A stretch of DNA of 17,031 nt from Candidatus Undinarchaeota archaeon. GTDB lineage: Archaea; SpSt-1190. Under the pieces are notes generated by a model. The model worked only from the letters and a program-made list of their open reading frames with translations, was not told where the DNA came from and ran no database searches. This document shows positions 20 through 17,031 of the stretch, in pieces (within the stretch, counting starts at the first letter, position 1; each line of letters begins with the position of its first letter). The translations under genes were made by a program, and so were the position numbers. The DNA lies in contig CAYVAH010000014.1 of assembly GCA_964449215.1 (NCBI GenBank), positions 1 to 17,031 on the forward strand, in the 5' to 3' direction.

Positions 20-110
20 TCAGCTAGCGAAATTCTCATCACCGAAAGGGGCTGCGCCCCTTTTCAAACCCCCGAGTTTGGGGGGTTTCAGAGTAACTGT
101 GATTCATCCC
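20..110 (-). ncRNA. Box C/D 2'-O-methylation guide sRNA (double guide) with structured insert between D' and C'
   Basis: Minus strand: box C GGGATGA (110-104, one mismatch to RUGAUGA), 12-nt guide ATCACAGTTACT (103-92), box D' CTGA (91-88), 45-nt insert (87-43), box C' GTGATGA (42-36), 12-nt guide GAATTTCGCTAG (35-24), box D CTGA (23-20). The D guide pairs 11 bp with the conserved 23S sequence UAGCGAAAUUC; the D' guide is complementary to the H69 loop GUAACUNUGA. Confidence 0.85.
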
Positions 111-125
111 GAAAAAAGTTGTTGG

Positions 126-878
126 TCAGGGTTTATCAATCTGTGCCTCTCCGAGGTCCCGCCACTCACCGCTGAATATGTACCCGGCGAGCTGGTTTAT
201 GGACGCGAGTTTTGGGAGGACATGCCTCTCCAGGCTTGCGGGACCTTTCGGAATTACTTTGAGAACCTCCGGCTCAATAACGAATGAACCTGCCGATATG
301 AGATAGCTCTCGGACCTTGATGGTTTTTCCCTGAACCCCACCACTCTTGTTCCCCTCATTTCCGGGACGCCGAACTTCTGGGGTTCCTTCCACGTTGTGA
401 GGGCAACAGTTGCCATGACATTCTGGCTGAAGTGGAACCTGTAGAAATCCAGGTAGTCAATGCTCGAGATGGTGTCTCCATATATCAAAAAGAAGCTGTC
501 CTTCAGCAGGTGGGAGGCTTCCCTGAGAGCTCCGCCGGTCCCGGAGCCTTCGTCGTCTATGAACTTGAGTTCCAGTTCCGTTTCGAGCTTTTCCTTCAGG
601 GATCCCGCGTTTTTACCTATGAATACAACGCGCTTGACCCCTACCGGGGCAAGTTTCTCGAGGTGAATGTCCACGGCCCTTTTTCCCCCAAACTCTTTCA
701 ATATGGTGTCTCCGGATCCGGTGAGGATGACTGCGGTTTTTGGCGTGGTTGTCAGGAAGGCCCTTTCGAGGAGCTTTTCAAAAACACCGGAGCGGCTTTC
801 CGATAGGTGTCCCACAAGCCGGTCAGCCCTCTTCAGAAGGCTCTCCTCAAGGGTGAGGCTGATGCGCCTTTTTGTCAT
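126..878 (-). CDS. Ribbon-helix-helix domain fused to a sugar-1-phosphate nucleotidyltransferase-like domain (degenerate active-site signature)
   Basis: N-terminus KRRISLTLEESLLKRADRLV...SRSGVFEKLLE is RHH/CopG-like. The rest has NTP-transferase motifs AVILTG, GTGGAL, YGD, FGV, FREKP, ISAG, SLE, WRDLG. ATG at 878. Confidence 0.85.
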   Translation of the reverse strand: MTKRRISLTLEESLLKRADRLVGHLSESRSGVFEKLLERAFLTTTPKTAVILTGSGDTILKEFGGKRAVDIHLEKLAPVGVKRVVFIGKNAGSLKEKLETELELKFIDDEGSGTGGALREASHLLKDSFFLIYGDTISSIDYLDFYRFHFSQNVMATVALTTWKEPQKFGVPEMRGTRVVGFREKPSRSESYLISAGSFVIEPEVLKVIPKGPASLERHVLPKLASINQLAGYIFSGEWRDLGEAQIDKP

Positions 879-5710: not shown

Positions 5711-6394
5711 TCACCTGAAAAACAGGAAAGCCAGGCCGAGCAACCCCACAAAGAGGACGCCAACCATCATTGTGTAGGGTGTGAATCCCAGTTGCACCGG
5801 GGGTTGCGGTTCTTCCTGGGTGCTGTTGCTCAGGGTGCTGTTTGTTTCTTCCATGGGGGTGGTTTCATTCTTTTGTTTTTTACCGTTCTCTTCACCAGTC
5901 TGATTGTTTGTTCCGGTGGTGTTTGTTGTGCTTGCTGTGCTTGTGGTCTGCGTTGTCTCCGGGATTATTGTGGTGCCGCCGGGGCTGCCACCTCCAGAAC
6001 TGCTTCCTCCACCACTTGAACCTCCCCCCGAGCTTCCTCCACTGGGAGGGGGAGCAGGCACGGTGTATTCTGCAGGGGTGCCTGAATTGTTGGCCAGGTC
6101 GAACGCTATGACATTGAAACTGTCACCGACCTTTGCATTGACAGTATAGGATGTCCGGGAAGTCCTGTTCAGGAGGGCATCATTCCTGTAAATCTCATAG
6201 TAAGCTATGCCGCTGCATTCCGGGCTGTCTTCTGCTTCATTCCACTGGAGGGTGCTGCCGACAAGTGTCAGTCCGGTTGGTGCCTCCGGGCTTTTGGTAT
6301 CAATGCAGATTGGCAGGCCGTCCGTTCCTTCGGCCGTTGCACTCGCCAAGATAGAGCAGAGGAACACGGCAGAAAATAAAATGACATGCTTCAT
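5711..6394 (-). CDS. Secreted, C-terminally membrane-anchored surface protein: one FN3/Ig-like module, Gly/Ser and Thr/Asn-rich stalk, TM helix
   Basis: Signal peptide MKHVILFSAVFLCSILASATA; module DTKSPEAPTGL...LQW...SGIAYYEIYRN...VIAFDLANNS; low-complexity linker; terminal hydrophobic helix ending in R. SD GGTGA before ATG 6394. Confidence 0.8.
   Translation of the reverse strand: MKHVILFSAVFLCSILASATAEGTDGLPICIDTKSPEAPTGLTLVGSTLQWNEAEDSPECSGIAYYEIYRNDALLNRTSRTSYTVNAKVGDSFNVIAFDLANNSGTPAEYTVPAPPPSGGSSGGGSSGGGSSSGGGSPGGTTIIPETTQTTSTASTTNTTGTNNQTGEENGKKQKNETTPMEETNSTLSNSTQEEPQPPVQLGFTPYTMMVGVLFVGLLGLAFLFFR
5975..6043 (-). repeat. Gly/Ser linker repeat (SGGSSGGGSSGGGSSSGGGSPGG)
   Basis: Low-complexity coding repeat read from the translation. 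Confidence 0.8.
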
Positions 6395-6411
6395 CGGTGT
6401 CACCCTGAACC

Positions 6412-9400
6412 TCAGTCTTCCCCATACATCTCGGCACCATGCTGGCTTATCATCCGGCAGTGCATCGCGGTCCTGCTGTTGCCCATATCGAAACCGAGTT
6501 CCGTGTCAGGTTCAGGACGATACAGCGGGTCGCATCCAACCGCATCGAACACATACCTGCCTTCTCCGCTTATGCCATACTCGGTAACGTTTATGGTTTC
6601 TTCATACCAGTTGCCTTCCTCACTGTTGAGGGCTACCCATCCTGTGTCTTCACACATCCCGAACAGGCAGAACAGGTTTCCGACCGCCGGTATTTCCATC
6701 ACCCTGAACTTAACGGTTTCCGGTGCGATTCCCGTTCTATCGTCAAGATACAGCGACACTGGCAGCATTTCGTTGTATACTCCGCCTGTTTGTGGGCTTG
6801 CCACCTCCATGCTGGGTCTGTCATTATCCACCATCATTGTTGTGGATGCCGTCCCTATGTTGAACTGTTCGTCCCGTGCGTGGACCATCAGGTAGTAGTT
6901 GCCGGATTCCAGTCCTTCCGGGAGCGGGCCGTTTATCTCGCAGAGGTTGTAGTCCAGTGCGGTTCCCGGGATATCATATCCGGTGTCCCCACCCGGTTCA
7001 CCCTCATTATCGGTGTAGATGTCGGCCCAGCAGTCATCAAATCCAGACTGGTATTCATCCACTTCAGCCTGCAGGCTCACGGTGTCACCTTCTGTCAGGG
7101 GACCCTCAAGTGTTCCGATATCTGTTATGAACACTCCAGGCCCTTCGTTATCCATGTTCATGGTTATTGGGCTGAGCCACGGGTTCAGTGCCAGCCAGCT
7201 ATACTTGTTGCCCACGTTGTCCACTATATCAACCCACAGAAAGACGGTGTCATTCAAACCGCTATCCTCCGGTATGGTCAGCTCTCCCTTGCAGATTACT
7301 TCATTGCCTTCGACCACTGCGTCAAGTGTCCCGAGCTCGACGACCTTCGGGTTTATGCCCATCTTGTAGAGCTCCTCCAGGTAGTCCCAGAGGTCCTTCA
7401 CGTTGGACTGATTTATTCCCTCAAAGTTGTAGTCCACGGCGTAGAAGGTGCATTGGTCCACACCACTGGCAGGGCAGTCATGGTTGTCGAACATGCAACC
7501 AACCTGATCCAGTATGCAGTCACTCTCGCAAGTGTTGCCCCCAAAGTCGATCACGGGCATATAGACGTAGAAGGGCTTGCCATCCCTGTAATACTGTCCG
7601 GCATGCGGATTCAGCACTTCACCGATCGGTGAGGTGTTGTCAATCAATATTTCCAGTCCGTCTGTCCATTCTGCTTCATTCCCGAGATAGTCAGTGGCTG
7701 TGACCTCGAAGTGCCACCTTCCACATTCTTCATACTGTGCTTCTCTTTCGAAGCAGTAGGCCTGCTCTTCTTCGTCCCAGGGCATTTCCGGGTCGTCAAG
7801 CTCAGAGGTTCTTCCATGGACCGTCCAGACCCCGACTCCCGGGTCGTCCGTCTGCTTCACGTCACGGACACGGGCGCAGAACTTGACCCTGTCGTCACCA
7901 CCAACATAAACATCTCCTTCGTATATGGGTTCCCCGCCATTTACGCGGACATATTTTTCAATCTCTGGCGGTGCAGTATCGACATTATCGACTTCCGTGT
8001 GAATTTCTTCCTTGTTCCCGAACCTGTCCATGCAGTAGTATTGCAGCGTGTGAACAGAGTCCTCGCCAAAGCGGATCGGCCCGTCATATTCCATCCAGCT
8101 TGTGTACCCTTCCCCATCGACATCATACCTGTAGTATATCTTGTAAGCTCCACTCGGGTGCGGATAAACATCCTCACAGTCAAGGGATATGGGTGTATCC
8201 TGGGTTATCCAGTAGTCATATTCATCCTCTCCAATGTACTGGGGTTCACAGACCTCCTTGTCAGTTTCGGGTGGGTCGAGGTCCACGGCATCTGTTTCAA
8301 AGTGGTGTTTCTCTTCATTTCCAAGTGCATCCACACACCAGTATTCTACCTGGTGATAGGACGACTCGTCGAAGCTGATGGGTTCTTCATAGATTGCTGG
8401 TTCTGACCACTCGGTCCACTCCTCCCCATCTCTGCTCCATCTGGTGCTCCAGTACACTGTCACATCATCAACCGGGTGTGGTTCCGGGTCCTCGCAGGTC
8501 AGCACTATCTGTGCTTTATCGTCTATTAGATAGTCCACTCCTTCCTCCGGGCCGGGTATCACGTTTTCACCGATGACATCCTTTTCAGTTTCAGGCGGCT
8601 GCGAATCCACTATATCCAGCTCATAGTGGACCCGCCCGGTGTTCCCGAGCGCATCCACGCAGTAGTAGTAGAGCTCGTGGTAGCTGTCCTCCCCATATGA
8701 GAACGGTCCCGGATATTCCTCCCAGCCTTCCATTGCCGGTTCTCCGTTCACAAAGTACATGTAATAGATGGTCTCGTGGTCAACTGGATGCGGTTCCGGG
8801 TCCTGGCAGTTCAGGTATATGGGCGTTTGCTGTGTGATGTACCAGGCTCCATCATAGACCTCATACTCTCCGGAGGGTTCGTACTGAACTTCCCCTGCAG
8901 GGACCTTCGGGTCACCCAGTTCCTTCTCAACTTCCGGCGGGGTGTCATCTACAAAGACGCACTGCTTTTTCACGTCTTCAACCTTGCCCACGCCATCCAC
9001 ACTGTAATACTCAATAAGGTGACAGCTCTCTTCATCCTTTGTGAACGGTCCCTCATAGACATTCCAGTCCCCGTATCCTTCCGCCTCCTGGCAGAGTTCC
9101 TGGTCCCAGCAGTATCTCTCATCAACCAGGGAGTTCCTCCAGTAGGTGACCCTTATGCCGCTCTCATGCGGTCCTGCGTCATCACTTGCCTCCAGCACAA
9201 CCGAGGTGTTAGTTTTAATCCACTTCGGGTAACCTCTGGAGGGGAACTGCTCGCCTTCGTACCATTTTTCGGTCACAGGTGGGGTTTTATCCACTATGAA
9301 GATTTCCGGGCCATCATAAACTTCATTTCCAAGGGCATCCCAGCACCTGATAAAGAGTGCATGCACGGACTCCTCCGGGAAGTTTATGTCGAATGGTGGT

Positions 9401-11058
9401 GTGGCTTCCCCACCTCCACCGCCTTCGGTGTCCAGCAGCTCATATCTCCACTCACACTCCACGTTATCAACGGGATGCGGTTCGGGGTCCAATGCCTCAA
9501 CATGTATGGCTGTGTTGCCATCAATCTGGCACCATTCCTCACTGTCAGGTTCGGGTGGACAGTCACCAAAATGTTCCCCGACCACAGTCTTTTTGATGAC
9601 CGGCGGGGTGTTGTCCACGGCATGCTCCTGCACATGCAACTGTTCCTTGTTTCCGAGTTTATCGACAGCATACCACCTTATCTCGTGGACTGACTCCCTG
9701 TCGAAGCTGTATTCCACGTGGCCATCCTTGTCCATGCCACTTTCAAGTAAGGTGTCTTCGTATGCTATGCCATCGCCGTCGCTGTCCCACCATATTTCAT
9801 ACCAGAGATAGTCAACCCCCACGGGGCAGTCCTCCGGGAAGTCCTCAGCATCCAAGATAACGGTGGTGCCAACGGTGACATAGTAATTATCCCCCGTGAC
9901 TCTGTCATAGGTTGGTCCATCAAAACTCTTTGTGGTTTTTGGTGGGGTGTCATCTACGTTGTCTATCTGTATGTGATGATGCTCTGTGTTTCCGATAAGG
10001 TCGACGGCCCAGTATGTCAGGTTCCGGCCGCACCCTTCAGGGAGGGTGAACGGCCCGGTGTATGTGTGTATGGTGCCACCATCTATCTGATAGTAAATTT
10101 TGTCCACGCCTATACCGCAAGGATTCCCGTATTCATCAATTTCTTCTGCTGATAGGCTGAACTCTGTGGCGGATGTCACGAACAGATGGCAGTTAAATGG
10201 GTCCTCTTCCTCACAGACAACATATGGCTCTCCCCATTCCTTGGTTGTGACCGGTGGAGCATTGTCTATACCAAACTTGTTGGTGTCTGAGCATTCATTA
10301 CCAGTCCAGTCCTCAGCCCATATACGGACGTTTGAAAATGCACACAAAGTGTAGTTTGGGGAAGGCCAGTAACGTTCATAAAAGCCACTTACGGGGTTGT
10401 AGGTCATTTCATACCTGTATGGCGGGTAATCAGGGGCGAACCACAAACCGAACTGGTCGGACACCTGTGTGGTGACGTTTTTCACACCGCTTCCGGGCCA
10501 CGATTCTGTTGCGACCCCTTTGATGAGTATGCTACCGTAATACCAGATGATGGGGTCATTAGCTGCTGGGTTGATAACCTCCACATCGGGGCATTCATCA
10601 TCATAAAGGTAATTGAGAGTGATCACCACATTTGGTTCATCATCAAAACAGTTTAAGGTGACTGTTGCGTAATCTTCGGTTATTACAGGCGACTCGTCAC
10701 CATCAACGGTGTACCTGTTGAAGAAATAGCTGTCAGCGATATACTGGGCATTGCTTATATTGACAACTGCACCATGGCAGCAGTAGAAAGTTTGCTCGGT
10801 TGTGAATGTTCCGCTTGTCACGGATGTCTCGTTCGGGAACCAGCATTCGCCTTCCAAAACTTCAAAATCGAAGGTTCCACCCTGAGCGGCTTCGGGACTT
10901 GCAGTCACGAGGAGCTCCTTCTCCTCGCACTGGTCGATGGCCCAAGCGCTAGAGCTTACGCTAACAATGATGAGGGACATGAAAAACGCCCGAAGAACAC
11001 CCGAAAGATTCATAATAGGTTGTCCAGTTCGCGAGGCCTGCCCCTTTTTGTATATCAT
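6412..11058 (-). CDS. Giant secreted acidic, Cys-rich protein made of about 12 tandem Ig-like beta-sandwich modules
   Basis: Signal peptide ...RAFFMSLIIVSVSSSAWA; modules start D-x-x-P-P-x-[TVI]-x-K and end H-x-[LIV]-x-Y-[YW]-[CAS]-V-D-x-x-G-N; no C-terminal TM helix. Start is 11058 or 11013. Confidence 0.85.
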   Translation of the reverse strand: MIYKKGQASRTGQPIMNLSGVLRAFFMSLIIVSVSSSAWAIDQCEEKELLVTASPEAAQGGTFDFEVLEGECWFPNETSVTSGTFTTEQTFYCCHGAVVNISNAQYIADSYFFNRYTVDGDESPVITEDYATVTLNCFDDEPNVVITLNYLYDDECPDVEVINPAANDPIIWYYGSILIKGVATESWPGSGVKNVTTQVSDQFGLWFAPDYPPYRYEMTYNPVSGFYERYWPSPNYTLCAFSNVRIWAEDWTGNECSDTNKFGIDNAPPVTTKEWGEPYVVCEEEDPFNCHLFVTSATEFSLSAEEIDEYGNPCGIGVDKIYYQIDGGTIHTYTGPFTLPEGCGRNLTYWAVDLIGNTEHHHIQIDNVDDTPPKTTKSFDGPTYDRVTGDNYYVTVGTTVILDAEDFPEDCPVGVDYLWYEIWWDSDGDGIAYEDTLLESGMDKDGHVEYSFDRESVHEIRWYAVDKLGNKEQLHVQEHAVDNTPPVIKKTVVGEHFGDCPPEPDSEEWCQIDGNTAIHVEALDPEPHPVDNVECEWRYELLDTEGGGGGEATPPFDINFPEESVHALFIRCWDALGNEVYDGPEIFIVDKTPPVTEKWYEGEQFPSRGYPKWIKTNTSVVLEASDDAGPHESGIRVTYWRNSLVDERYCWDQELCQEAEGYGDWNVYEGPFTKDEESCHLIEYYSVDGVGKVEDVKKQCVFVDDTPPEVEKELGDPKVPAGEVQYEPSGEYEVYDGAWYITQQTPIYLNCQDPEPHPVDHETIYYMYFVNGEPAMEGWEEYPGPFSYGEDSYHELYYYCVDALGNTGRVHYELDIVDSQPPETEKDVIGENVIPGPEEGVDYLIDDKAQIVLTCEDPEPHPVDDVTVYWSTRWSRDGEEWTEWSEPAIYEEPISFDESSYHQVEYWCVDALGNEEKHHFETDAVDLDPPETDKEVCEPQYIGEDEYDYWITQDTPISLDCEDVYPHPSGAYKIYYRYDVDGEGYTSWMEYDGPIRFGEDSVHTLQYYCMDRFGNKEEIHTEVDNVDTAPPEIEKYVRVNGGEPIYEGDVYVGGDDRVKFCARVRDVKQTDDPGVGVWTVHGRTSELDDPEMPWDEEEQAYCFEREAQYEECGRWHFEVTATDYLGNEAEWTDGLEILIDNTSPIGEVLNPHAGQYYRDGKPFYVYMPVIDFGGNTCESDCILDQVGCMFDNHDCPASGVDQCTFYAVDYNFEGINQSNVKDLWDYLEELYKMGINPKVVELGTLDAVVEGNEVICKGELTIPEDSGLNDTVFLWVDIVDNVGNKYSWLALNPWLSPITMNMDNEGPGVFITDIGTLEGPLTEGDTVSLQAEVDEYQSGFDDCWADIYTDNEGEPGGDTGYDIPGTALDYNLCEINGPLPEGLESGNYYLMVHARDEQFNIGTASTTMMVDNDRPSMEVASPQTGGVYNEMLPVSLYLDDRTGIAPETVKFRVMEIPAVGNLFCLFGMCEDTGWVALNSEEGNWYEETINVTEYGISGEGRYVFDAVGCDPLYRPEPDTELGFDMGNSRTAMHCRMISQHGAEMYGED
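7981..10266 (-). repeat. Seven closely related ~110-aa tandem modules within the giant protein
   Basis: Module starts DNAPP, DDTPP, DNTPP, DKTPP, DDTPP, DSQPP, DLDPP (next is DTAPP at 7980). The peptide DPEPHPVD recurs at 8467-8490, 8779-8802 and 9466-9489 with synonymous changes. Confidence 0.85.
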
Positions 11059-14286: not shown

Positions 14287-14298
14287 GAGGTGATGTAT

Positions 14299-14541
14299 AT
14301 GCCAAGAGGAGATAGAACTGGTCCGCTGGGTCGAGGACCCATGACAGGACGTGGTCTGGGATACTGCGCTGGTTACGATGCCCCTGGATTCATGTTTGGC
14401 AGGGGCTTCGGGAGAGGCAGGCGCTTTCCGGCACCGGCTCCGGTGAAGCTTTCAAAGGAAGAGCAGATAAAGGTGCTTGAAGCTCAGAAGAAGGCCCTGG
14501 AGAAGAGGCTTGAAGAGCTGAAAGGCGATGCCAAGGCGTAG
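14299..14541 (+). CDS. DUF5320 family protein
   Basis: MPRGDRTGPLGRGPMTGRGLGYCAG, Gly/Arg-rich middle, C-terminal coiled coil; SD GAGGTGA. Confidence 0.88.
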   Translation: MPRGDRTGPLGRGPMTGRGLGYCAGYDAPGFMFGRGFGRGRRFPAPAPVKLSKEEQIKVLEAQKKALEKRLEELKGDAKA

Positions 14542-14845
14542 AAAGAGATGCTGGGTTGGGGGGATGCCCCGGGTGAGATATTTCAAGCCCCAGGGTATCC
14601 CTGTTTCTTCTTTACAAGAGGTGGTGCTGACTGTGGAGGAGCACGAAGCGTTGAAGCTCGCTGATCTGCAGGGTTTGCCACAGAAAGAAGCGGCGGAGAA
14701 GATGGGAATTTCACAGCCCACATTTTACCGGTTGTTGAAGTCGGCACGCAGCAAGGCTTCCATGGCCATAATAGAGGGGAAGGCCATCCGCATAGAAGGG
14801 GGGAGCTACGTTGTGGGTGGCAGGGGCAGAAGGATGCGGGGCTAG
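14528..14845 (+). CDS. DUF134 (UPF0251) predicted HTH DNA-binding protein
   Basis: MPRRRKRC...YFKPQG...LTVEEHEALKLADLQGLPQKEAAEKMGISQPTFYRLLKSARSK...IIEGKAIRIEGG. Confidence 0.92.
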   Translation: MPRRRKRCWVGGMPRVRYFKPQGIPVSSLQEVVLTVEEHEALKLADLQGLPQKEAAEKMGISQPTFYRLLKSARSKASMAIIEGKAIRIEGGSYVVGGRGRRMRG

Positions 14846-15516: not shown

Positions 15517-15578
15517 GCGGGGGTGTTCCCAAACACGGCTGTGAATGGGAACAGCCACTGCTCTGGAGGTGTTCTGGG
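15517..15578 (+). promoter_or_regulatory. Structured thrS 5' leader
   Basis: TATA-like GCTTAAAT at 15485-15492. TGTTCCCA (15524-15531) pairs with TGGGAACA (15546-15553), with an inner CAC/GTG stem and an outer extension, ending 3 nt before SD GGAGGTG (15565-15571). Confidence 0.55.
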
Positions 15579-17031
15579 TGAAAATTGAAGAGGTCTTATC
15601 CAAATTAGGTAAAGTGCTGGACTCCGGGAAGCGGGAAGAATTTTTGTGGTTTGATGTTCAGACAACACCCCTGACAAGGGAGGACTATGCATCCCTGGAA
15701 GAACGTTTCGAGAAAGCAGGGCACCACGTGAAGGTTCTGAACGCAGGCTCGGCGCTCAACAGGGTTACAGGGGAGGAAGTGCAGCGGGTCTGGCTGGTGG
15801 CTTTCAGGAGCAGGAAGGAACTCGAGCAGTGGATGGAGGAGTTTGAGGAGCGGAAAAAGAAGGACCACCGGTACATCGGGGAGCAGCTGGATTGGTTCCA
15901 CGTGCAGGAGGACATCCTCGGGCCGGGTCTGCCCTTGCTTCATCCAAAGGGTATGGTGATCCGCAATTCCCTCATAGAGCTTATGCGGGAGGTGAATTCC
16001 CGCCTGGGTGCGCAGGAAGTGTGGACGCCCCATATTGCCAAAGCGACGCTGTGGAAGATGAGCGGGCACTACGACCACTACCGTGACAAGATGTTCATAT
16101 GGGAGCAGGATGGTGAAGAATGGGGGATCAAGGCTATGAACTGCCCGATGCACATACAAATCTATCGCTTCCGTCCGCGGAGCTACAGGGAGCTCCCCAT
16201 CAGATATGCGGAGTTCGCCACCGTTTATCGCAAGGAGCAGTCCGGTGAGCTCCACGGTCTTTCCCGTGTCTGGTCCCTGACACAGGACGACCATCACTTC
16301 ATTGTTCGACCGGACCAGATAAAGGGCGAGGTGGTCCGGATACTCCGCGCCGCTCAGGGCGTGTATGAGCTGTTCGGGTTCCCATACAAGGTGAAGCTTG
16401 CCACAAAGCCTGATGATGCCATGGGCGACCCGAAATTGTGGGAGGAAGCGGAGCGGGGGTTGAAGGAGGCCCTGAAAGTGGCGGGTGTGGAGTATGAGCT
16501 CAAGCCCAAGGATGGAGCTTTCTACGGTCCAAAGATAGACATATACGTGAAGGATTCTATGGGCAGATGGTGGCAGCTCACCACAATACAGCTCGATTTC
16601 TTCATGCCGGAGAACTTTCACATGAGCTATGTTGATGCCAGTGGGAAGCGAAAACAGCCCGTTATCATTCACTTTGCCATCCTCGGCTCTCTGGAACGGT
16701 TCATGTCTGTGATAATTGAGCACACCGCCGGGAGGCTTCCTTTCTGGCTCGCCCCTGATCAGGTGCGTGTCTTGCCGGTGAGTGAGAGGCAGGCGGATTA
16801 TGCGCGGGAGGTAGTGAATGAGCTCCGGGGCCTTGGGGTGCGGGCGGAGCTGAGCGCAGGGGGGACTTTGAGCAAGAGGGTATTGCAGGCAGAGACTGAG
16901 AAGGTGGCTGTGATTGCCGTCGTCGGTGAAAAGGAGAAGCAGGCGGGCAAGGTCAGCATCAGGGGTGGAGAGACACTGAGCCGCGAAGAATTCAAAGAAA
17001 GGCTTTTGTTGGCTGTGATGGAGAGGAAGAT
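15578..17031 (+). CDS. thrS: Threonine--tRNA ligase, bacterial-type catalytic core with short N-terminal domain (3' end just outside the window)
   Basis: Translated by hand, since it is absent from the ORF track (no stop in window): KKDHRYIG, GPGLPLLHPKG, LWKMSGH, KAMNCPMH, RSYRELPIRYAEF, YRKEQSGELHGLSRV, QDDHH, GAFYGPKID, TIQLDF, IIHFAILGSLERF, PFWLAPDQV. GTG 15578 follows SD GGAGGTG; ATG 15545 is an alternative start. Confidence 0.96.
   Translation, partial: MKIEEVLSKLGKVLDSGKREEFLWFDVQTTPLTREDYASLEERFEKAGHHVKVLNAGSALNRVTGEEVQRVWLVAFRSRKELEQWMEEFEERKKKDHRYIGEQLDWFHVQEDILGPGLPLLHPKGMVIRNSLIELMREVNSRLGAQEVWTPHIAKATLWKMSGHYDHYRDKMFIWEQDGEEWGIKAMNCPMHIQIYRFRPRSYRELPIRYAEFATVYRKEQSGELHGLSRVWSLTQDDHHFIVRPDQIKGEVVRILRAAQGVYELFGFPYKVKLATKPDDAMGDPKLWEEAERGLKEALKVAGVEYELKPKDGAFYGPKIDIYVKDSMGRWWQLTTIQLDFFMPENFHMSYVDASGKRKQPVIIHFAILGSLERFMSVIIEHTAGRLPFWLAPDQVRVLPVSERQADYAREVVNELRGLGVRAELSAGGTLSKRVLQAETEKVAVIAVVGEKEKQAGKVSIRGGETLSREEFKERLLLAVMERK

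What the first reader, a model, noticed from the sequence alone, without database searches (positions are those of the whole stretch)
20..110. Double-guide box C/D sRNA aimed at 23S rRNA helix 69 (A1913) and C1934
Seen: all four boxes in canonical order with two 12-nt guides. Established: archaeal C/D RNAs methylate the base paired to the fifth nucleotide upstream of D or D', and both guides often hit nearby sites; 23S contains the conserved stretch GUAACUxUxAC...AAGGUAGCGAAAUUCC. Inference: the D guide (11 bp) targets C1934 and the D' guide (about 10 bp) targets A1913 (E. coli numbering), 21 nt apart. A1913 contacts the decoding centre and corresponds to yeast Am2256. The D' guide also predicts an uncommon loop sequence, GUAACUGUGA (G at 1916), in this organism.
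Basis: partly seen in the sequence, partly recalled or inferred. Interest (0 to 1): 0.75.

Follow-up and report, generated by a model that had tools for sequence, protein, structure and literature searches.

The report
Methylation guide RNA with repeat insert
This is a real archaeal small-RNA gene that should direct sugar methylation at two neighbouring sites of the large ribosomal RNA; that job is ordinary, but its central loop carries a piece of a dispersed hairpin repeat and one of its two target sites overlaps the junction of a self-splicing intron.

Summary
Confirmed as a box C/D sRNA gene on the minus strand, 110-20, in a small DPANN archaeon that encodes fibrillarin, Nop5 and L7Ae. The D' guide pairs with the host's own 23S helix 69 (10 Watson-Crick + 1 G-U; target A1913), and the predicted G1916 loop is real. 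The D guide targets C1934, but with 9 contiguous pairs, not 11: contigs 99.5-99.9% identical to the host 23S have A1940. Both sites already have predicted guides in other archaea, so the core finding is ordinary. Expression, methylation and the repeat's mode of movement are untested.

The parts
104..110 (-). C box GGGAUGA (U2->G; the same variant opens the host's C12 sRNA)
92..103 (-). D' guide, pairs 23S G1909-A1919 (10 WC + 1 G-U); N+5 base = A1913 in the helix 69 loop
   Evidence: host 23S C5:25675-25685; duplex -15.5 kcal/mol
88..91 (-). D' box CUGA
43..87 (-). 45-nt D'-C' linker folding into two GC-rich hairpins; 72-46 is repeat module B, shared with a second C/D sRNA linker (C5) and with three sites behind tRNA 3' ends
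   Evidence: fold; copies
36..42 (-). C' box GUGAUGA
24..35 (-). D guide, pairs U1931-U1939 of spliced 23S (9 WC; 8 in the intron-containing precursor); N+5 base = C1934; same guide core as the first guide of Rfam sR39
20..23 (-). D box CUGA
129..139 (-). Weak TATA-like element inside the 3' end of the upstream ORF, ending about 21 nt before the C box, the spacing seen in most other host sRNAs (inferred promoter, unproven)
   Evidence: read by eye
126..878 (-). Upstream gene, nucleotidyltransferase (PF00483), stop 15 nt before the C box; marks the orthologous locus in relatives

Best explanation
A functional double-guide box C/D sRNA (about 91 nt). It is transcribed from the minus strand (own weak promoter or read-through from the AglB - CMP kinase - nucleotidyltransferase operon; inferred), binds L7Ae, Nop5 and fibrillarin (genes shown, binding inferred) and directs 2'-O-methylation of 23S A1913 and C1934 by the N+5 rule (pairing shown, methylation inferred). 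Its D'-C' loop has taken up a fragment of a dispersed hairpin repeat (shared sequence shown; insertion inferred from syntenic orthologs with 8- and 22-nt loops), which loops out as two hairpins and is tolerated. In strains with the group I intron at 1931 the two target sites lie 434-742 nt apart in the precursor, and C1934 lies in the intron's P10 pairing, so D-guide methylation most likely follows splicing (inferred).
For: Boxes, spacing and nulls. The D' guide fits the lineage's own G1916. Machinery present. The A1913 D' guide is found in 5 of 9 family genomes by DNA search and a variant in a sixth (G007). At the same locus the second guide points to the same rRNA neighbourhood in G009 (U1926, 8 WC, second-best hit) and probably G004 (related guide core). 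It is the only A1913 guide found in this 95%-complete assembly. Intron: 3 of 7 metagenome hits are 99.5-99.9% identical to the host 23S and all 3 have the intron (Rfam RF00028 63.8 bits on L087); G001 has one too (58.2 bits). Repeat: 4 of 34 family sRNA loci I picked have loops of 45 nt or more and all 4 hold a repeat module; 0 of the other 30 do (L115 was mis-parsed there, its loop is 3 nt).
Against: No expression or methylation data. The linker gives no clear canonical stem next to C'/D', so K-loop formation and D'-guide activity may be impaired; the free MFE fold also buries boxes and guides. The D duplex is at the usual 9-bp threshold and alone arises in 6% of shuffles. The D target and the intron were read from other contigs, not from this assembly; 3 of the 7 hits (81-91% identical) lack the intron. 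G004's D guide has better matches elsewhere on the host 23S (9 WC at model positions 225 and 490) than at C1934, G009's best D match is also elsewhere (9 WC + 1 G-U), G007's fits nothing well, and their own 23S genes are not assembled. Invariance across runs is weak support: coding positions 126-203 are invariant too.
Confidence: 0.75

Rival explanations
1. A half-disabled sRNA: the gene is real, but the repeat fragment disrupts the C'/D' K-loop, so only one guide (most likely the D guide) or neither still methylates.
For: No canonical stem flanks C'/D' in the constrained fold; the C box is non-consensus; reviews state that the internal box motifs forming K-turn and K-loop are essential for maturation (PMC7994747 passage).
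Against: All of D', C', D are perfect and both guides still fit targets 21 nt apart; the same kind of insert lies in 3 other family sRNAs whose conserved guides remain intact; no other A1913 guide was found in the assembly; halophile sRNAs have 19-21-nt loops (PMC2584109 passage).
Confidence: 0.17
2. The linker is not a mobile insert but a functional RNA or DNA module (stabilising hairpin, terminator, promoter or protein-binding site) that stable-RNA genes in this family share by gene conversion between the two sRNAs and tRNA flanks.
For: Copies cluster at stable-RNA genes: 9 of 17 module B and 17 of 30 module A copies lie within 150 nt of a called tRNA or C/D gene; no TnpA or TnpB found in the genome; no direct repeat flanks the window copy; the 42-nt match to the C5 sRNA runs through the C' box.
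Against: Patchy presence at two syntenic loci, opposite orientation of module A in G000 and G009 at the same locus, 12-23-bp direct repeats beside 10 of 17 module B copies and 10 bp beside two more, and copies away from any called RNA gene point to insertion.
Confidence: 0.2
3. Two unrelated single-guide RNAs, or chance boxes around a terminator-like repeat.
For: The long linker would allow the halves to be read separately; Rfam matches only the 3' half (sR39, 23 bits, below its cut-off of 50).
Against: Syntenic orthologs with the same D' guide are single compact sRNAs; both guides hit sites 21 nt apart (0 of 3000 shuffles).
Confidence: 0.04

Closest known systems
Archaeal double-guide box C/D sRNAs (Lui et al. 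2018 PMC6009581; Dennis et al. 2015 PMC4644070; Breuer et al. 2021 PMC7994747; passages read, plus a search of Dennis's supplement)
   Same: Box order, 12-nt guides, N+5 rule, two targets within 100 nt (about 45% of Pyrobaculum sRNAs), helices 68-71 as a hotspot. Dennis's table lists Ignicoccus sR91 at alignment A2179 and Methanopyrus sR43 at C2200, which I equate with 1913 and 1934 from their A2178 = E. coli A1912.
   Different: 91 nt instead of about 50; a 45-nt two-hairpin loop instead of 4-10 nt (19-21 in Halobacteria, PMC2584109); target crossed by a group I intron junction.
Rfam sR39 (RF01122)
   Same: Same guide core for C1934; a true sR39 in G022 (73 bits) pairs with that genome's own 23S at the same site.
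   Different: There it is the first (D') guide, here the second; the partner guide differs; the window scores 23 bits against a cut-off of 50.
Yeast snR63 / Am2256 (PMC2794176, passages read)
   Same: Same helix 69 loop adenosine.
   Different: Eukaryotic snoRNA; no sequence relationship tested.
MITE-like sRNA elements of Pyrobaculum calidifontis (PMC6009581, passages read)
   Same: Link between C/D sRNAs and short non-autonomous repeats.
   Different: There inverted repeats flank a whole sRNA-like unit with degenerate D'/C'; here the repeat sits inside the D'-C' loop of sRNAs with intact boxes and conserved guides, and the same repeat lies at tRNA ends.
Subgroup IB4 group I introns at LSU 1931 in DPANN archaea (Nawrocki et al. 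2018 PMC6125680, table passage read)
   Same: Same insertion site, same superphylum.
   Different: A search of that paper's text for C/D, snoRNA or methyl terms found no discussion of guides; subgroup assignment here is by site only.

Membership tests
Archaeal box C/D sRNA | C, D', C', D boxes in order | tested here: met
   one deviation in the C box
Archaeal box C/D sRNA | Guides of about 10-12 nt before D' and D | tested here: met
   12 and 12 nt
Archaeal box C/D sRNA | At least 9 contiguous Watson-Crick pairs to host rRNA/tRNA around N+5 | tested here: met
   D': 10 WC + 1 G-U on the host's own 23S; D: 9 WC on 23S completed from a 99.9%-identical contig
Archaeal box C/D sRNA | Host encodes fibrillarin, Nop5, L7Ae | tested here: met
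   PF01269 C2:44962, PF01798 C2:44121-44714, PF01248 C6:2296
Archaeal box C/D sRNA | Expressed, bound by L7Ae, directs 2'-O-methylation | not testable with these tools
   no RNA holder listed
Compact Pyrococcus-type C/D sRNA (subtype) | Short K-loop (about 4-10 nt) between D' and C', total 50-60 nt | tested here: not met
   45-nt loop, 91 nt total; typical rather than defining for the class
Rfam sR39 (RF01122) | Score above gathering threshold over the whole model; both guides shared | tested here: not met
   23 bits vs 50, only the first half of the model aligned
MITE (for the linker) | Terminal inverted repeats and target-site duplication | tested here: not met
   window copy: longest flanking direct repeat 6 bp and no terminal inverted repeats in the 45 nt; other copies do have 12-26-bp direct repeats
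MITE (for the linker) | A related autonomous transposase | tested here: inconclusive
   PF01797 and PF07282 not found in this 95%-complete assembly; other transposase, integrase or casposase families not searched
Group I intron at 23S 1931 (in the target) | Rfam Intron_gpI above threshold, U before the 5' splice site, terminal G, P1 pairing | tested here: met
   L087 63.8 bits, G001 58.2 bits, junctions and P1; L086 (long ORF inside) did not reach the threshold; the intron itself is not in the host assembly

The most novel reading that the evidence does not exclude
This DPANN family carries an undescribed class of short, modular hairpin cassettes that home on stable-RNA genes (tRNA ends and box C/D sRNAs), copying 12-26 bp of the target as they insert, with no IS200/IS605 enzyme in the genome. 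The D'-C' loop of C/D sRNAs is a safe harbour hit repeatedly and independently, and the shared cassettes give recombination handles that swap guide halves and flip sRNA genes, which would explain the fast guide reshuffling seen here. The window's sRNA would be a live product of that process, and also a guide that must wait for a group I intron to splice.
Probability: 0.3. Interest if true: 0.68.

Novelty: new variant of a known kind. Interest (0 to 1): 0.38.

Why it matters
The guide pair alone adds one more archaeon to a known methylation hotspot. The extras are more useful. Repeat-bearing loops of 45-89 nt would be missed by compact-sRNA models (Rfam finds only half of this gene), so DPANN sRNA counts may be underestimates. 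Two syntenic loci with short-loop and long-loop alleles offer a natural test of how much the archaeal K-loop tolerates and of how guide halves get reshuffled. A guide whose duplex crosses a self-splicing intron junction, with its target base in P10, gives a simple way to order splicing and methylation in archaeal ribosome assembly.

Tried and rejected
Expression: no RNA holder listed among 12 runs; this is no evidence either way. Reading the 3' half as the 5' half of an sR39-like RNA running off the contig edge: rejected, because orthologs join it to the upstream A1913 half. Other targets for the D guide: next best 8 WC in 23S, nothing better in 16S or 29 tRNAs; 5S rRNA, four intron-containing tRNAs and mRNAs were not in the target set. 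The guide would fit the U1940 type of 23S seen in G022, G045 and G013 with 11 bp; I considered transfer from, or action on, another archaeon, but one base (1-in-4 chance) is no support. Reciprocal exchange between the window sRNA and the C5 sRNA at their shared 42 nt: attractive, since A1913 + tRNA-Met is the pairing in G001, G006 and G008, but the A1913 guide also sits at the window's locus in G004, G007 and G009, so no exchange is needed. IS200/IS605 origin of the linker: no TnpA or TnpB; Rfam names no family for it. The first null run used a D guide shifted by one base and was redone; one search was killed; one search found nothing because the pattern was too strict. One search scans bacterial promoter types and is uninformative. 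Linker survey limits: loops of 56-69 nt were not searched, the patterns need a UGAUGA C box (they miss the window gene itself), one search returned loci for only part of its 43 matches, and I dropped 7 long-gap matches (L091, L093, L095, L096, L099, L101, L121) as poor-box or outside-family before counting. Literature searches for a description of the repeat or of repeats inside the D'-C' loop and for guides crossing group I intron sites found none in this library, which lacks most subscription papers; palindromic repeats of Methanocaldococcus (MJRE) are recalled from memory and were not found. P. abyssi sRk48/52 repeats (PMC3124441, section 8 read) were not compared by sequence. PMC11602168 (passages) reports high MITE density in some DPANN genomes but I did not search its supplements, which may hold this repeat.

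Full report
Setting. The window is the start of contig C14 of a 788-kb, 95%-complete archaeal genome. Public records that carry the same guide sequence are labelled Ca. Altiarchaeota, Ca. Undinarchaeota or Nanobdellati, so the host is a DPANN archaeon; the runs that hold half or more of the window's first 3 kb are hydrothermal-vent metagenomes. The feature lies 15 nt after the stop of a nucleotidyltransferase gene, the last of a same-strand run with AglB/STT3 and cytidylate kinase.

Observation. On the minus strand: C 110-104, guide 103-92, D' 91-88, linker 87-43, C' 42-36, guide 35-24, D 23-20. A four-box pattern gives 7 match starts in the genome and none in 20 shuffles. My scan listed 7 candidates of 14 raw matches, with loops of 3, 3, 3, 10, 14, 45 and 89 nt. 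Contigs of 4 of 4 runs laid on the window show no difference inside the gene.

Targets. The host 23S gene is on C5 and breaks off at the contig end. The D' guide pairs over 11 positions (10 WC, 1 G-U) and its fifth base faces A1913; it has no other hit at 7 WC or more in the target set. The contig ends at U1931, so the D target is not assembled. A scan of metagenome contigs with the last 30 bases gave 7 hits; three are 99.5-99.9% identical to the host over 1.2-1.5 kb. All three read A at 1940, so the D guide makes 9 contiguous pairs (U1931-U1939), a mismatch and one more pair, with N+5 at C1934. Shuffled guides reach the D score in 193 of 3000 trials, the D' score in 31, and both within 100 nt in none. 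Fibrillarin, Nop5 and L7Ae are encoded.

The guides are not new. A pattern for an A1913 guide gave 55 hits in GTDB species genomes, 48 in records titled as archaea (33 Bathyarchaeia; counted by hand); 41 of 55 read C at 1916 and 9 read G, 7 of those in this family. Dennis et al. list predicted methylation at the equivalent positions in Ignicoccus (sR91) and Methanopyrus (sR43) and call helices 68, 69 and 71 hotspots. The C1934 guide core is that of Rfam sR39, but the window gene is not an sR39 member. Yeast Am2256 is the same adenosine. G1916 also occurs in G001, G011 and G013.

The intron. The three near-identical contigs carry an intron right after U1931: 434 nt with a LAGLIDADG remnant in two, 742 nt with a 172-codon LAGLIDADG frame in the third. 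Rfam scores L087 as a group I intron; G001, the only other family genome of 9 with an assembled 23S, has a 289-nt one at the same site. A fourth hit (90% identical) also enters an intron; the three remaining hits (81-91%) have none. Such introns at 1931 are known in DPANN. The host contig's ending at this base fits an intron that varies in the population, but no intron sequence is in the assembly, so its presence in this strain is inferred. In the precursor the D guide pairs 8 bp instead of 9 (-10.2 vs -11.2 kcal/mol), and exon bases 1932-1934 can pair with the intron's guide sequence as P10. I infer that double-guide binding and C1934 methylation follow splicing; the energy gap is small, so this is a hypothesis.

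The linker. It folds into two GC-rich hairpins. Its 3' 27 nt (module B) occur 5 times in the genome: here, in the 89-nt loop of a second C/D sRNA on C5, 4 and 76 nt behind called tRNA genes, and behind a tRNA 3' fragment at a contig start; 1.7% of the genome lies within 150 nt of a tRNA or C/D gene. Module B was found in 6 of 9 family genomes and 1 of 51 others. A second module (A), present in the C5 loop but not in the window's, was found in 6 of 9 family genomes and 6 of 51 others. Of fetched copies, 9 of 17 (B) and 17 of 30 (A) lie within 150 nt of a called tRNA or C/D gene; the rest do not. Many copies are bracketed by direct repeats of 12-26 bp, often the tRNA end; the window's copy is not. 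No TnpA or TnpB was found.

Orthologs. The nucleotidyltransferase gene marks the locus. Among 7 family genomes with that gene, G004, G007 and G009 have an sRNA with the A1913 guide at its 3' end, on the opposite strand and overlapping the reading frame, with loops of 8, 22 and 87 nt; G001, G003, G006 and G008 and the 7 out-of-family genomes show none there. The window gene is therefore inverted relative to all three and free of the frame; direction of change is not established without a tree. At the C5 locus, syntenic in 8 genomes, the D guide for the tRNA-Met wobble C is constant, the D' guide varies, and loops are 3, 3, 3, 13, 19, 22, 78 and 89 nt; module A points in opposite directions in the two long ones, which argues for independent insertions. 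Of 34 family sRNA loci that I selected, 4 have loops of 45 nt or more, all with a module; none of the other 30 has one in the loop, and 4 have one within 80 nt after the D box.

Mechanism and odds. Shown: boxes, pairing, machinery, repeat identity, synteny, intron in near-identical contigs. Inferred: transcription, RNP assembly despite the long loop, methylation, mobility of the repeat, order of splicing and methylation. I put 0.75 on a working double-guide sRNA, 0.17 on a partly disabled one and 0.04 on unrelated halves or chance; separately, about 0.2 that the linker is a shared functional module rather than an insertion.

Earlier notes of this scan (unchecked AI notes) describe hairpin inserts with duplicated tRNA ends in this genome, cassettes behind or inside C/D sRNAs in other small archaea, and an ordinary A1913 guide in a Thorarchaeon. 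They agree with my reading but are not independent support; they do show that the repeat theme is already on this scan's record.

Verdict. A genuine C/D sRNA with known kinds of target: ordinary in function, a modest new variant in anatomy. Interest 0.38.

Noticed in passing
G000:C5:10408-10540 (L002, L106): Second C/D sRNA with an 89-nt repeat-filled loop; its D guide fits the wobble C of tRNA-Met(CAU) (10 WC + 1 G-U) and is conserved at this locus in 8 genomes, while the D' guide differs. Present in all 4 runs.
   Followed up: yes
G000:C5 23S end; L086, L087, L089, L084, L083: Group I intron at 23S 1931, polymorphic for its LAGLIDADG frame: long in L086, internally deleted in L087 and L089, absent in G001.
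   Followed up: partly
G000:C2:10394 minus strand: C/D sRNA whose D guide pairs 12 of 12 with the 16S 3' end at the anti-Shine-Dalgarno region, with the D' guide at 16S position 1355.
   Followed up: no
G000 C1:70030-70400, C7:21180-21460, C19:9740-9960, C31:7870-8192, C44:3500-3737, C46:1-260: Repeat cassettes bracketed by 12-26-bp exact copies of tRNA ends; the C7 copy is in reverse orientation.
   Followed up: partly
G000 C3:38300-38480 minus and C16:1-200: Module A follows two similar GC-rich non-tRNA stretches that Rfam does not name at E 0.5; possibly an unannotated structured RNA. A related stretch precedes module A in G001 (L182).
   Followed up: partly
G001, G006, G008 (L018, L020, L021, L024-L026): Each has two sRNAs with the same A1913 D' guide joined to different D guides.
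   Followed up: partly
L029-L082 (Bathyarchaeia records): A widely shared sRNA with the A1913 guide in the D position and a degenerate D' box; L075, titled as a bacterium, carries near-identical DNA to L052 and may be mis-binned.
   Followed up: no
window 6412-11058 and 5711-6403, minus strand: A 1548-aa acidic, cysteine-rich repeat protein with only a weak Ig-like Pfam hit in the part scanned (C-terminal 1162 aa), followed by a 230-aa Thr/Gly-rich anchored protein with no Pfam hit; likely surface proteins.
   Followed up: no
window 14290-14845, plus strand: DUF5320 and DUF134 genes in tandem.
   Followed up: no
window 15545-17031, plus strand: ORF that by eye resembles a bacterial-type threonyl-tRNA synthetase with a short N-terminus (recalled resemblance; not scanned).
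   Followed up: no
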